Part shown: in pieces, positions 15,868 to 58,712 of the stretch
Layout: each line of letters opens with the position of its first letter
Numbering within the stretch: position 1 is the first letter of the stretch
From: Eledone cirrhosa
Lineage: Eukaryota
DNA: 64,000 nt
NCBI GenBank assembly: GCA_964016885.1
Contig: OZ024745.1
Coordinates: 21,948,001 to 22,012,000 of the forward strand
Direction of reading: 5' to 3'
The notes under the pieces: generated by a model
What the model was told of the DNA's origin: nothing
Seen by the model: only the letters and a program-made list of their open reading frames with translations
Database searches by the model: none
Translations under genes and position numbers: made by a program

Positions 15868-16230
15868 TAAAGAAAAAAGGATGAAATCGAAAATGCAACT
15901 GGAGTCTTATTTTTTTAAAAATATATATATATTTATTTGGTTCCTTTACCGGTTTCGCAGTTCTTCTGCTTTTCAAAAGGTGAGTTGAGATGGAGGGTCT
16001 GTGGTTATTCTCACATCTGATGTGAGAAAAACCACAGACCCTCCATCTCAACTCACCTTTTGAAAAGCAGAAGAACTGCGAAACCGGTAAAGGAACCAAA
16101 TAAATATATATATATTTTTTTAAATAAGACTCCAATTGCATTTTCGATTTCATCTTTTTTTCTTTATACTTTCATTCGTGTAGGACACCTCGGTTATTTT
16201 TCATTTTGTAAAAAAAACCTCACTTTCTAA
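15868..16230. mobile_element. Fold-back element family 1 (~150-bp arms, centre ~16018) between (TA)n runs
   Basis: 15868-16016 is the reverse complement of 16020-16168; a second, centrally deleted copy lies at 17350-17640. Confidence 0.9.
16056..16093 (+). ncRNA. Minimal hammerhead ribozyme with variant U3-A8 core
   Basis: CCTT-TTGAAAA-GCAG(aagaa)CTGC-GAAA-CCGG-TA-AAGG; same sequence at 15943-15980(-) and 17463-17500(+). Confidence 0.7.
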
Positions 16231-16249
16231 TATATATGTATATATATAT

Positions 16250-16800
16250 ATGAGAGACGTAAAATAAGAAAATTATAAAATTAACTTACTTACTAAAATA
16301 TCACTTCCAACTAATTAGTTTCTGGAATGGAGTAAATATATTTTCCGAAGAAGATATAGAGAAACATTCCGTCGTCAGGGAAGTCTATTCTTTATAATTA
16401 TCTCCAAATTATTTGTCGAGCAATATTGGCCATGACTGCTGCTATGGTAGTAGGCAGGCCGCTGTCTTATTAGCAAACCACTTTCCACTGATTGACCTCG
16501 ATGTCCCGTGATTGATTCTTTTTGAATTTGCCACAGACGCAGAGGCAGTGATTTTCTCAATGGCTAGGAATTCAGTCCACGCTTTGCTATTTCCTATCCA
16601 CTGAATTATTTTTTAATAAGTTTTCAGAGTCCTCGCTTTGCCTGGAAACTTAGCTGAGAATAGACTTCCCTGACGACGGAATGTTTCTCAATATCTTCTT
16701 CGGAAAATATATTTACTCCATTCCAGAAACTAATTAGTTGGAAGTGATATTTTAGTAAGTAAGTTAATTTTATAATTTTCTTATTTTACGTCTCTCATAT
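16250..16800. mobile_element. Inverted-repeat element family 2 (~140-bp arms, ~265-bp spacer)
   Basis: 16250-16390 is the reverse complement of 16657-16800; (TA)n lies on the left. Confidence 0.9.
16664..16745 (+). ncRNA. Type I hammerhead ribozyme
   Basis: ACTTCC-CTGACGA-cGGAATG...CATTCCa-GAAA-CTAATTAG-TT-GGAAGT; mirror copy at 16303-16384(-). Confidence 0.85.
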
Positions 16801-16984
16801 TATTGTTCTGCAACCCCATGCATTGAACCACAATGTTACTAAGACAAAACCTATATATTTGCTAGCATTGATATGCATCTGTATGTATATATATGTTACT
16901 AGATATTAATTCTTTATATATATATATATATATCTTTTACTCATTTACCTGTTTCAGCCATCCGGCTGAGGTCATGCTGGGATT

Positions 16985-17195
16985 AATTCAAAATATTAAC
17001 AAAATAGATATTCTTTTGATCAATTATATTGTATTATACATATTTCAGAGGTACTGAGTTAAGTTCAACAGTACGTCCTCATCAGATAAAATAAAATGAT
17101 ACATGACATACCCTGACATAGTAGCACTCTGTTGAGTGCTTCCAATCTATTGTAAAACTCATTCTTTGATGTATTCATTGAACCTTGTTTAACTC
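16985..17195 (-). mobile_element. Hammerhead element family 5 copy (ribozyme ~17027-17093, minus strand)
   Basis: Reverse complement of 36703-36842, plus sequence shared with 36459-36525. Confidence 0.8.
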
Positions 17196-17349
17196 TTAAA
17201 TATATATATATATATATATATATATTGTCCCCCCCCCCCCCACTCTCAAAAGCGTGAACCTAATAAACCTTTATTTGTCTGCCTCTCTGTTTTCTTCCCC
17301 TATAAATTTGCACTATATATATATATATATATATATATATATATATAAA

Positions 17350-17640
17350 TAAAGAAAAAGGGATGAAATCGAAAATGCAACTGGAGTCTTATTTTTTTTT
17401 TAAATATATATATTTATTTGGTTCCTTTACCGGTAAAACCACAGGCCCTCCATCTCAACTCACCTTTTGAAAAGCAGAAGAACTGCGAAACCGGTAAAGG
17501 AACCAAATAAATATATATATTTTTTTAAACAATAAGATTCCAGTTGCATTTTCGATTTCATCTCTTTTTCTTTATACTTTCACTCGTGTAGGACACCTCG
17601 GTTATTTTTCAATTTGTAAAAAAAACCTCACTTTCTAATA
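17350..17640. mobile_element. Fold-back element family 1, second copy with central deletion
   Basis: Near-identical to 15868-16230; flanked by (TA)n on both sides. Confidence 0.88.
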
Positions 17641-17858
17641 TATATATATATATACCTAAAGAGAGGGAGGTGGAAAAAATTATCGACACCAATACTAGAA
17701 TACTAGAGAGGTACTTTATTTATTGGGTTAGAGAGATCAGAAGCATTAGAGGCGTTTGGATGAAGACTTTGGCCAAAGGATACATTTCTCTTTTTCTCCC
17801 ACTTGTCTTGAAGGCTCTGGAAAGGTTCATAACTTGTAACCTTTCTTCTGGATTAAAT

Positions 17859-55331: not shown

Positions 55332-55684
55332 CATATATTTTGATTATGTGAATATCTTCATTTGTTAATATTTTGAATAATGTGTGTGTGTGTGTGTGTG
55401 TGTGTGTGTGTGTAAGGTGACAATTGATACAGTCATTCTAACGTTAAATGGCTCGCTATTTGTTCTGGTTCTCAGAGCTCTGATTTCAAATCCCGTTGAA
55501 GTTAAATTTGCGTTCCATTCTTTAGGGTACGAACACACACACACACACACACACACACACACACACACACACACACACACATATATATATATATATATAT
55601 ATATATATATATATATATATATATATATATATATATATAGTTATATATATATATATATGTATGTATGTATGTATGTATGTATGT

Positions 55685-56525
55685 AAGGACCCCTAGCATT
55701 TGTCAGAGTATTGTTCTAGCAGAAGGCAACTCAGGAAACTGGGATAACTCCAATATAAAACCTACGGCTCAGTAGTTACCGATGATGTTGATCTTTTCTT
55801 CTTTTCGGGTTATAGCTACTGTCGCCCAGAGAGTGGGATTGGCTCAGTGCACAGTCTTTCCTCACTTTAAAAAATATCTTCACGCACATGCACTGCACGA
55901 TAGAATTAATTAATAATTATTAATATTGGTATATCGTGCAATGGCCATACTCGATAACGAAGGGGCAGCCATTATGTATGTATATGTCGGGTCACTCTTG
56001 AGTGCTACTGGTAACAGTTAACACAGTACAACCTGTCGCATGGTCGAGTCGTCGGCGACTAAACCGGTAACCCCACCAAGTTTACTTGGTGAGGAGGGTG
56101 ATTTTGGACAGCCTGCAGGAGAAAAAACAAAACCTGACAAAGGGCGGAAGAACTCATAAGAGTCAACTGCCATCCGAAAGTGTGTAAACATGTATATACA
56201 CATGTACCGCGCGGTTAAGCCACTGGGAGTGAAGGACCCTAGCCTTTGTCAGGGCATTTTTCTAGGAGAAGGCAACTCAGGAAACTGGGATAACTCCGAT
56301 ATAAAACCTGCGACTCAAAAACCGATGATGTGGAACTTTTCTTCTTTTCGGGTTATAGCTACTGTCGCTCAGAGAGTGGGATTGGCTTAGTGCACAGTCT
56401 TTCCTCACTTTAACAAATATCTTCACACACAGGCATTACACGATAGAATTAATTAATAATTATTAATAATGGTATATCGTGCAATGGCCATACTCGATAA
56501 CGAGGGGGCAGCCATTATGTATGTA
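55685..56525 (+). mobile_element. Partial tandem (period 547) of a non-coding retroelement with (TATG)n tail, RTE 5'UTR-like
   Basis: 55685-55983 approximates 56232-56525; both end GCCATTATGTATGTA, and the left flank is (TATG)n. Confidence 0.65.
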
Positions 56526-57019
56526 AGTATTAGTTTACAAAGGTTGCCGAATAATATTCGTGCCACTCCGGCCGCTTCTTAAAGATATAAGATTTATACG
56601 TAAAACAGAGAAACTGTGACGGCACACAAATTTATTACAAGTAAGCGGCGATGCGTGGCTAATGATATTTGTGTACCATAAACCTGGACTATCGATAGTT
56701 TCTGTATTACAATCTGCTCATAACAGGTCTAACTCTTATGAACAGAATGTTCTACAAAATGGAATACCTTCGTAAAAACAATCATTTTTCGTTAAGACGT
56801 AGATCATATTGGAAATGTGTGTTAGTTTGTCTCTCCTTGTCCATGTTTAAGTTCATGTCTGTTGTGTAACTTAGCGATTCGACAAGAGAGGGATAGATAA
56901 AATAAGTACTTGATAAGATACGTACTGGGGTGGATCGCTTCGATTAAATCAAGGAATTTTCTCCGGCATGATCGCAGTTTCATGAATGAAACCAATAAAA
57001 TTAAGTGGGGGAGGGGGTT

Positions 57020-57640
57020 GATTGTGTTTGTATATATATGTGAGTGTCTGTCTGAATGTGTTTGTGTGTATGTGTGAATGTTATTGTGTGTGTGTTTGTG
57101 TGTGAGTGTTGGTTTGAATGTGTTTGTGTGTATGTGTGAATGTTATTGTGAATGTGTTTGTGCGTGTGTGTGAGTGTCGGTTTGAATGTGTTTGTGTGTA
57201 TGTGTGAATGTTATTGTGTGTGTGTTTGTGTGTGTGTGTGAGTATCGGTTTGAATGTGTTTGTGTGTATGTGTGAATGTTATTGTGTGTGTGTTTATGTG
57301 TGTGTGTGAGTGTCGGTTTGAATGTGTTTGTGTGTGTGTGTGTGAATGTTATTGTGAATGTGTTTGTGTGTATGTGTGAATGTTATTGTGTGTGTGTTTA
57401 TGTGTGTGTGTGAGTGTCGGTTTGAATGTGTTTGTGTGTGTGTGTGTGAATGTTATTGTGAATGTGTTTGTGTGTGTGAATATTATTGTGAATGTGTTTG
57501 TGCGTGTGCGGGAGATTGAATGTGTTTGTGAGTTTGAATGTGTTTGTGGGTGTGTGTTTGAATCGGTTTGTGCGCGTGTGCGAGTGTGTTTGTGTGTGTG
57601 TGTTTGAGAATGTGTTTGTGTGAGTGTGTGTGTGTGTATG
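57020..57640. repeat. GT-rich degenerate minisatellite
   Basis: GGTTTGAATGTGTTTGTGTGTATGTGTGAATGTTATTGTG units. Confidence 0.85.
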
Positions 57641-57839
57641 TGTAAATGTGTTGGTATCTTTGGTTGACGTACACTGGTGAATGGCGTAAGAACACCTAAA
57701 AGCAGTGAAGCAGTGAATGGTCTGTTGAAATCCTGTAACTAGTATTGCTATTGTTCGCCGACCGAGATATTAAATAAAGATAAGTAAAACATACAGATAT
57801 AATATATGAGAGAGAGGGAGAGAAAAGGAGAGTGGGGGT

Positions 57840-58235
57840 GAGAGAGAGACAGTAAGAGAGAGAAAGACAGATAAAGAGATGAAACGGAAGATGGAGCGAA
57901 ACAAACAAAGCCAAACAATGCGATAGAGAAGGGGAGGTAAAGAACATGAGAGGTAGCGTGAGAGAGGAGAGAGAGAGAGCATGAGAGAAAGAGAACGGGA
58001 GAAAGAGAGAAGGAGAGAGGGGCGTGAGAAAGAGACAGTAAGAGAGAGAAAGACAGATAAAGAGATGAAACGGAAGATGGAGGGAAACAAACAAAGCCAA
58101 ACAATGCGATAGAGAAGGGGAGGTAAAGAACATGAGAGGTAGCGTGAGAGAGAGAGGTGAGAGATAGATAGATAGAGAGAGAGAGAGCATGAAAGAAAGT
58201 GAACGGGAGAAAGAGAGGAGAGAGGGAGAGAAAGG
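57840..58235. repeat. ~186-bp GA-rich tandem duplication
   Basis: GAGACAGTAAGAGAGAGAAAGACAGATAAAG occurs at ~57846 and ~58032. Confidence 0.85.
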
Positions 58236-58367
58236 TACACACATATATATATATATATATATATATATATATATATGCAGAGGTTATATTTAATTTGTTG
58301 GGATTCAACAAGCTTAAACATTTTTATAACTGATATAAAGCACTCAACAAATAGTGGAGTAAATAAA

Positions 58368-58712
58368 CAATATATTAATAAATAGAAACTATATTTATAA
58401 AACCATATTTATTTTATTATACATATTTCAAGGGCAACCAAGAAAAATTATGGTGCGCTTTCATCAGATGAAATACAGATTTGTTTTATAAATAAATATT
58501 GACATACTCGGAAAAAAAAGACAACCTTAACTAGCCAGGAAGCTCCAACCGCTAAGGTTGTCTTTTTTTACGGGTATGTCAATATTTATTTATAAAACAA
58601 ATCTGTATTTTATCTGATGAAAGCGCACCATAATTTGCCTTGGTTGCCCTTGAAATATGTATAATAAAATAAATATGGTTTTATAAATATAGTTTCCATT
58701 TATTAATATATT
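58368..58712. mobile_element. Fold-back element family 10, hammerhead 58606-58671(+) with mirror copy on -
   Basis: ~160-bp arms centred ~58540; homologous to 48151-48444. Confidence 0.88.

What the first reader, a model, noticed from the sequence alone, without database searches (positions are those of the whole stretch)
15868..58712. A fleet of ~12 distinct (TA)n-associated fold-back elements, each carrying a minimal hammerhead ribozyme
Seen: between TA runs lie short non-coding elements of largely unrelated sequence that all fold by hand into stem I-CUGANGA-stem II-GAAA-stem III-NUH. Plus-strand starts are 16056, 16664, 22993, 23435/24182, 35967/36953, 36731/55265, 38683/43061, 44125/45612, 44350, 46605, 47092/48351/58606 and 49885. 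With mirror copies this is more than 25 ribozyme motifs in ~45 kb. Known: minimal type I hammerheads are a hallmark of Penelope-like element pseudo-LTRs and retrozymes, and PLEs often have an inverted 5' LTR. Inference: this is a large, diverse radiation of non-autonomous or truncated PLE-type elements that nest in (TA)n microsatellites. No PLE RT or GIY-YIG ORF is visible in this window.
Basis: partly seen in the sequence, partly recalled or inferred. Interest (0 to 1): 0.9.

Follow-up and report, generated by a model that had tools for sequence, protein, structure and literature searches.

The report
Penelope and retrozyme hammerhead stumps
The short hammerhead-bearing inserts in TA repeats are real and very common in this animal genome; most are end pieces of Penelope-like jumping genes and the rest are pieces of tandem "retrozyme" repeats likely pasted in by the same enzymes, a layout already described in other animals.

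Summary
Observation confirmed. A type-I hammerhead descriptor finds 24 motifs in the window against 1.05 in shuffles. Four more fold by eye and five are degenerate. Stems covary across families. Only 12 of 23 insertions are fold-backs, and several families are not minimal (domain II of about 49-117 nt).

The families split in two. A, E, F, I and J (H on one locus) lie at the 3' end of RT/GIY-YIG Penelope-like ORFs elsewhere in the genome (Neptune-type and Hydra-type). B, D, K2 and N form ORF-less tandem units of 420-660 bp, i.e. non-LTR retrozymes.

Each family has two fixed 3' ends at (TA)n, and 35 of 39 head-to-head pairs use one of each, matching the published tail and two-site priming. A 1-Mb sample suggests about 240,000-460,000 hammerheads genome-wide. 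The layout is in print (Cervera 2014, Arkhipova 2013, Craig 2021, Frangieh 2024), and this scan noted it before in this genome and others. Cleavage and expression are untested.

The parts
15870..16230 (.). Family A fold-back (Neptune-type PLE end); cores 15976(-) and 16060(+), U3-A8 covariant core; short end left, long (tailed) end right
16252..16949 (.). Family B fold-back (retrozyme-like, tandem 523-558 bp elsewhere); cores 16378(-), 16670(+), 49-nt domain II
16980..17199 (-). Family C copy, core 17085(-), with an oppositely oriented piece of tail; Hydra-like scaffold, no ORF link found
17349..17638 (.).
22158..22878 (-).
22916..23329 (+). Family D sub-unit copy; core 23000, 7-bp stem I; 469-bp tandem arrays elsewhere (retrozyme-like)
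23380..23674 (+). Family E solo copy with tail; core 23439
23813..24383 (.). Family E fold-back, 256-nt arms 100% complementary; cores 24069(-), 24187(+); long end left, short end right
35724..36080 (.). Family G fold-back; cores 35833(-) and 35971(+), both degenerate; no ORF link found
36455..36843 (.). Family C fold-back; cores 36653(-, stem I closing pair lost) and 36739(+)
36931..37056 (+). Family G solo copy; core 36957, folds by inspection
38679..39034 (+). Family H solo copy; core 38689, domain II of about 117 nt
42873..43385 (.). Family H fold-back; cores 43057(-), 43067(+), domain II of about 103 nt (fold z -3.3); Hydra-type EN 790 nt upstream at one locus (L094)
44024..44277 (.). Family I fold-back (Hydra-type PLE end, young: top genome copies 99-100% identical); cores 44106(-), 44130(+)
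44302..44472 (+). Family J solo copy (Neptune-type PLE end); core 44354, truly minimal (2-nt palindromic stem III)
45543..45767 (+). Family I-related solo copy; core 45618
46382..46769 (+). Family K solo copy; core 46611, weak stem II; relative of K2, no close copy in the loci held
47016..47196 (+). Family F solo copy (Hydra-type PLE end); core 47100
48148..48446 (.). Family F2 fold-back; cores 48247(-), 48359(+)
49415..49680 (.). 3' tip of another Neptune-type PLE family (L044/L045 type), lacking its hammerhead
49701..50020 (.). Family M fold-back; cores 49887(+, weak) and 49830(-, GAAA lost); decayed, unassigned
53023..53341 (+).
55164..55380 (+). Family C2 solo copy; core 55271
58276..58711 (.). 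Family F2 fold-back with tail on the left arm; cores 58467(-), 58614(+)
63845..64000 (-). 3' end of a family E copy that continues past the window edge into EN-coding sequence (L306)

Best explanation
These inserts are short end pieces (pseudo-LTRs) of several Penelope-like retroelement families, plus pieces of ORF-less tandem repeats that are likely non-LTR retrozymes, each carrying a predicted type-I hammerhead and likely inserted into (TA)n by Penelope-type RT/GIY-YIG enzymes. Shown: the ORF links, the tandem units, the fixed 3' ends at (TA)n, two 3' ends per family and one of each per fold-back. Inferred: the endonuclease cuts both strands in (TA)n, and each strand primes cDNA synthesis on uncleaved element RNA, one at the inner start site and one at the outer (tail) site. 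The two cDNAs stop early, most often 60-135 nt upstream of the predicted cut site, and are joined head to head, which gives the fold-back. If only one arm survives or is made, a solo copy results. The hammerhead is copied because it lies between the start sites and the usual stop point; it would cut mainly as a dimer through its palindromic stem III.
For: Family A lies about 0.85-1.3 kb downstream of the GIY-YIG in 8 of 8 loci of one Neptune-type family and flanks a 938-aa RT-CxxC-GIY-YIG ORF as direct repeats in L041. Family E follows a GIY-YIG end in 13 of 13 rows at >=70% identity and in 0 of 3 rows at 46-53%. Family F: 17 of 20 loci picked by its 3' UTR reach a Hydra-type ORF, with stair-step 5' truncation; L301 shows inverted copy + pLTR + intact 743-aa ORF + pLTR. 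J follows a Neptune-type ORF in L293 and L294. I continues about 2 kb upstream into a Hydra-type EN in L289. ORF-bearing head-to-head copies exist (L046, L053, L079-L081). Tandem ORF-less units with a hammerhead per unit: D 469 bp (L092, L290), K2 420-510 bp (L054, L177, L295), B 523-558 bp (L122, L127), N 660 bp (L291). In the 1-Mb sample, (TA)4 lies within 120 nt of the 3' end for A 19/20, E 19/21, F 17/18, I 7/7, J 17/21, K2 20/27, against an 18% background. Two modal ends per family and 35 of 39 mixed pairs, binomial p=1.7e-7. The tail is the 5' UTR that follows the upstream pLTR (L041, L091), as in Frangieh 2024. Covariation: 92.6% of cells paired and 79 double changes in 24 Hydra-type motifs; 90.9% and 30 in 11 retrozyme-type motifs; 0 of 500 shuffles reach the paired percentage or these counts. 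Only 2 of 97 copies of A, E, F and X start within 5 nt of the predicted cut.
Against: C, C2, G, K and M have neither an ORF link nor a tandem array in about 2 Mb held; H rests on one locus. B, G, H and M show weaker (TA)n association (3/8, 1/3, 1/4, 4/7 within 120 nt). The Hydra-type ORF hits no RT or GIY-YIG model in Pfam, so its assignment rests on motifs and weak tblastn similarity. Four of 39 PLE pairs and 3 of 8 K2 pairs are not mixed. In the Hydra-type alignment two of five measures are not above shuffles (140/500 and 499/500), and stem I is AU-rich with one double-changed pair. Monomer MFE folds rarely give the hammerhead shape; 13 of 15 have z above -2. Cleavage was not tested. Snap-back self-priming (Arkhipova 2013) is not excluded.
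Confidence: 0.9

Rival explanations
1. All families are independent non-autonomous fold-back elements (MITE- or SINE-like) that spread as whole hairpins.
For: 5' junctions pile up at family-specific points (A 13 of 27 at -79 to -61; E 11 of 30 at -103 to -85; I 16 of 51 at -95 to -87), so many copies look alike in length.
Against: Junctions and spacers differ from copy to copy, copies extend by steps into ORFs, and the two arms end at different sites, unlike terminal inverted repeats.
Confidence: 0.04
2. Each fold-back comes from one cDNA that snaps back on itself (self-priming at a short palindrome) and is copied back to the inner site, not from two primed strands.
For: Many pairs are symmetric about the centre; the family I centre falls on a short AT palindrome; young arms are up to 100% identical; Arkhipova 2013 favours self-priming (passages).
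Against: The short arm ends precisely at a site that is also an end of solo copies and is followed by TATA in the element; Frangieh 2024 shows both target strands are cut and extended in vitro. This rival changes the joining step, not the identity of the elements.
Confidence: 0.3
3. B, D, K2 and N are ends of PLEs whose ORFs were not sampled, and their tandem arrays arose later by local recombination as satellites.
For: Only 30 loci were chosen for K2 and none specifically for B, D or N; family I needed 2 kb of walking to reach its ORF.
Against: Upstream of the K2 hammerhead lies the 3' part of the same unit in single copies (circular permutation); tandem arrays themselves sit in head-to-head layout with (TA)n ends (L290, L292).
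Confidence: 0.15
4. The motifs are chance matches in AT-rich, self-complementary DNA or assembly artefacts.
For: Shuffled 1-Mb samples still give 8-14 hits, and one cluster of 5 sample hits is a simple repeat.
Against: 10-100-fold excess over shuffles, covariation, and a short-read contig spans the centre 48230-48361 of one fold-back without a difference (may be the assembly's own sample).
Confidence: 0.01

Closest known systems
Minimal hammerheads in pLTRs of metazoan PLEs (Cervera and De la Pena 2014, PMC4209133; parts 1-2 of 4 read)
   Same: Type-I motifs in many consensus families per genome, mostly single and truncated, opposite-strand pairs 100-700 bp apart, U3-A8 covariant core, palindromic helix III.
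   Different: Counts there are thousands per genome (about 9,000 in Xenopus tropicalis) against an estimated few hundred thousand here, with different descriptors. Families B, H, M and N have a domain II of about 49-117 nt.
EN+ PLE insertion layout: pLTR, inverted 5'-truncated copy, one-sided tail (Arkhipova 2013, PMC3846280, passages; Craig 2021, PMC8557442, passages)
   Same: Head-to-head inversion, tail on one end, microsatellite targeting.
   Different: Tails here are 45-88 nt by family against 30-40 bp; most insertions are ORF-less stumps.
Hydra clade of PLEs (Craig 2021, section 11 read)
   Same: Family F ORF has RWR, DKT, CxCx5C linker, C-terminal CxxC and CxH, a hammerhead and (TA)n targets.
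   Different: Described from 21 Repbase families plus a few more; here 16 of 39 PLE EN ends in a 1-Mb sample are of this type. The 3' UTRs are 1.6-2 kb and elements exceed 3 kb.
Two-site internal initiation of Poseidon_Ac (Frangieh 2024, PMC11167929; parts 1-2 of 4 read)
   Same: Two RT start sites bounding the tail, both strands extended, uncleaved RNA as template.
   Different: They saw no difference in start site between strands in vitro; here 35 of 39 pairs use one site each. They found no RNA-target homology, whereas here the ends in A, F and E are followed by TA-like bases in the element.
Metazoan non-LTR retrozymes (Cervera and de la Pena 2020, PMC7229834, passages; Li et al. 2026, 10.64898/2026.07.22.740005, part 1 of 5 and passages)
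   Same: ORF-less tandem units of a few hundred bp with one type-I hammerhead each; PLEs proposed as the mobiliser.
   Different: Units here reach 660 bp. K2 shows two (TA)n ends and head-to-head arms like its PLE neighbours; 'tail' does not occur in Li 2026 and 'inverted' only in a reference title. Circular RNA not tested.

Membership tests
Type-I hammerhead ribozyme | CUGANGA, GAAA and NUH in order with stems I-III | tested here: met
   24 by descriptor against 1.05 shuffled; 4 more by inspection
Type-I hammerhead ribozyme | Covariation of stems with invariant core | tested here: met
   weaker in the AU-rich stem I of the Hydra-type group
Type-I hammerhead ribozyme | Self-cleavage at NUH, as monomer or dimer | not testable with these tools
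   no RNA holder listed; needs an assay
EN+ Penelope-like elements (families A, E, F, I, J) | Single ORF with RT and C-terminal GIY-YIG upstream of the hammerhead repeat | tested here: met
   L041 RVT_1 + GIY-YIG; L298 GIY-YIG; L293, L300, L301; L289 EN only. Absent from the window copies themselves
EN+ Penelope-like elements (families A, E, F, I, J) | Pseudo-LTRs as direct repeats around the ORF | tested here: met
   A in L041, F in L091 and L301; for E a tail followed by 5' body in L306; not seen for I and J
EN+ Penelope-like elements (families A, E, F, I, J) | Inverted 5'-truncated copy and one-sided tail | tested here: met
   35 of 39 pairs in A, E, F, I and X; J gave one pair only
EN+ Penelope-like elements (families A, E, F, I, J) | RT phylogeny with reference PLEs and telomerase | not tested
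Hydra clade (F, I; H tentatively) | RWK-like motif, DKT, CxCx5C linker, CxxC/CxH, (TA)n target | tested here: met
   L300 ORF; I289 EN shows linker, CxxC and CxH; definitions
Neptune/Nematis clades (A, J, E) | CX2-5CxxC linker before the EN | tested here: met
   L041, L293 and L298; the linker does not separate Neptune from Nematis
Non-LTR retrozymes (B, D, K2, N) | ORF-less tandem units with a hammerhead in consecutive units | tested here: met
Non-LTR retrozymes (B, D, K2, N) | Expression as circular RNA | not testable with these tools
   no RNA holder listed (run with family F only)
EN+ PLE or retrozyme (C, C2, G, K, M) | ORF upstream or tandem unit | tested here: inconclusive
   few copies in 2 Mb, none long
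Scrambled-order hammerheads (lead from earlier notes) | Core strands in C-B-A, B-A-C or A-C-B order | tested here: not met
   0 in the window with a strict descriptor that finds 9 type-I motifs; a looser or differently wired fold could be missed

The most novel reading that the evidence does not exclude
This genome holds a few hundred thousand type-I hammerheads, the densest load in the papers I read, driven largely by a Hydra-clade expansion. Its retrozymes carry the same two-ended, head-to-head, (TA)n-targeted footprint as the PLEs, which would be direct genomic evidence that PLE enzymes mobilise retrozymes. The short stumps would be complete cDNAs of the transcript's 5' leader (transcription start to RT start sites), made by an RT dimer that uses one start site per target strand. 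In A and X a TATAAAA lies 29-31 nt before the modal 5' end.
Probability: 0.45. Interest if true: 0.5.

Novelty: new member of a known kind. Interest (0 to 1): 0.3.

Why it matters
As a class this is known. Its value is as a very large natural record of PLE insertion events: tens of thousands of junctions per family can test how inverted pLTRs and tails form, which the 2021 and 2024 papers list as open. Retrozymes and PLEs in one genome share the footprint, which bears on the untested claim that PLEs mobilise retrozymes. The long-domain-II motifs are assay candidates.

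Tried and rejected
Rfam scan: dominated by microsatellite and hairpin miRNA models; one sub-threshold hammerhead row among the 150 shown. PF26215 is not in the family library, so GIY-YIG was used. Protein searches of the genome with a Hydra-type and a Poseidon-like EN returned only near-identical copies (60,975 and 25,548 first-look candidates, 150 scored each) and linked no further family; candidate counts are not copy numbers. 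Run search: no RNA holder listed, no evidence either way. Laid contigs are uninformative on expression. Monomer folding does not test a dimer ribozyme. Cleavage site as the 5' end of insertions: rejected, 2 of 97 copies. Scrambled hammerheads: none in the window. A possible long-domain-II motif at 60396-60565 folds as a plain hairpin and was dropped. 60733 is a deleted remnant lacking GAAA. Lunse et al. 2017 on dimer-cleaving PLE hammerheads is recalled only; the DOI I tried is not held. Searches for octopus or cephalopod + hammerhead + Penelope or retrozyme gave no paper on this by title or abstract; subscription papers and bioRxiv supplements were not visible, and no supplements were read, including Craig 2021's Hydra and HHR files, which may list related mollusc families.

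Full report
Observation. The window is AT-rich animal DNA crowded with (TA)n runs and lies at G000:C5:21948001-22012000 in a 3.0-Gb assembly. The host is probably a cephalopod: the only species-named homologue of one element's protein is from Argonauta hians at 39% identity, and an abundant 190-bp repeat resembles an octopus SINE from recall only. A strict type-I hammerhead descriptor gives 10 hits against 0.04-0.1 in shuffles. Allowing C3-G8 covariants, bulges and longer domain II gives 20 against 0.4 and 24 against 1.05. In all, 23 insertions carry a core, 12 as fold-backs and 11 as solos. Across diverged copies the core is invariant apart from N7 and one U3-A8 swap, and the stems change in pairs. 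These alignments used 24 of 65 and 11 of 32 distinct motifs, thinned at 93% similarity.

Link to autonomous elements. A GIY-YIG search gave 10,596 candidates, 150 scored; I examined 47 of them. Family A lies downstream of the endonuclease in 8 of 8 loci of one family with a CX4CxxC linker and brackets a 938-aa RT-EN ORF in L041. Walking upstream from family F reached a different ORF in 17 of 20 loci, with coverage falling in steps towards the 5' end. Its intact 743-aa form carries the Hydra-clade motifs of Craig 2021 but hits no RT or GIY-YIG model in Pfam. Family E follows its endonuclease by about 200-520 nt, and a family E copy at the window's right edge runs on into such coding sequence. 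J follows a Neptune-type ORF in two fetched loci, and I reaches a Hydra-type EN after about 2 kb. H has one such locus. The window itself has no PLE ORF.

Non-autonomous part. K2 showed no ORF of its own in 30 loci. It is circularly permuted and forms 420-510-bp tandems. D, B and N form tandems of 469, 523-558 and 660 bp. These meet the sequence definition of non-LTR retrozymes used by Li 2026, apart from its energy filter, which I did not apply. C, C2, G, K and M stay unassigned; C and C2 share the hammerhead scaffold of F.

Insertion footprint. In 100 evenly spaced 10-kb stretches the families end at fixed points beside (TA)n and vary at the 5' side. Each has two modal 3' ends, counted from the predicted cut: A 82/150, F 56/143, E 144/207, I 39/127, X 125/170, K2 213/269 (the numbers shift by a few bases with the reference used). 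In head-to-head pairs within 400 nt, 35 of 39 combine a short and a long end; for the retrozyme K2 it is 5 of 8, two of the others reading into the next unit. Rows under 78% identity, duplicates and locus-edge hits were dropped. The extra piece is the 5' UTR that follows the upstream pLTR. This is the tail of Arkhipova 2013 and Craig 2021, explained by Frangieh 2024 as the span between two RT start sites.

5' ends. They cluster 60-135 nt upstream of the cut in all six families tested (identity >=85%, loci picked by upstream sequence excluded; I and J are biased against ends inside their query). Only 2 of 97 A, E, F and X copies begin at the cut, so the template was likely uncleaved. A TATAAAA lies 29 and 31 nt before the modal 5' end in A and X but not in E, F, I or J; in I the centre is a short palindrome. 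Run-off at the transcript's 5' end is therefore plausible for 2 of 6 families and unproven.

Scale. The sample holds 126 motifs per Mb at score >=9 (bootstrap 92-165) against 8-14 in four shuffles, about 240,000-460,000 for the genome after subtracting background. The sample over-weights the four largest chromosomes (80 of 100 stretches). The window, with 21, is about 2.6 times the mean and in the top 2% or so of resampled blocks. Published counts that I saw are about 9,000 minimal motifs in X. tropicalis and 120,000 retrozyme copies in axolotl, from other descriptors.

Comparison and verdict. Cervera and De la Pena 2014 already report families of minimal motifs, opposite-strand pairs 100-700 bp apart, the U3-A8 core and low dimer activity. 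The scan's notes show the same reading elsewhere in this genome and in others; 953 notes in this genome fit the word hammerhead. The finding is real and correctly guessed, but it is a new member of a known kind. What adds value is the family-by-family split into PLE ends and retrozymes, the one-site-per-arm count, and the size of the Hydra-type expansion. Interest 0.3.

Noticed in passing
window 17856-18045, 21869-22053, 40169-40546, 41774-41949, 47444-47633, 48445-48617, 60954-61319 and others: A very abundant repeat of about 190 bp, with more than ten pieces in the window and depth in the millions in laid contigs; SINE-like by recall. One copy replaces the tail end of the fold-back at 48446.
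   Followed up: no
May be a PLE tip truncated past its ribozyme.
   Followed up: partly
window 59765-60700, 49075-49303, 47772-47827, 15549-15730, 36046-36387: Further fold-back or inverted elements without a recognised core.
   Followed up: partly
window 20284-21458 and 12057-12715: Fragments that look like a restriction-like-endonuclease non-LTR retrotransposon (recall); Pfam gives only a weak PHD finger, E 0.015.
   Followed up: partly
window 1-4400, 29070-31900, 51570-53040: Long low-complexity minisatellite arrays giving spurious long ORFs.
   Followed up: no
L043:7980-8089, L044:2385-2496, L302:4570-4678, L298:3963-4077: Other hammerhead families with a domain II of about 90 nt or more, recurrent in the random sample (clusters 13 and 15); L044's follows a Hydra-type EN by 875 nt.
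   Followed up: no
L290:1-4120: A 469-bp retrozyme-like array of at least ten units arranged as a head-to-head palindrome around position 3011.
   Followed up: partly
L300:2672-4900, L301:2781-5009, L303:1311-4025, L041:3809-6622: Long uninterrupted PLE ORFs of three types, consistent with recent activity.
   Followed up: partly
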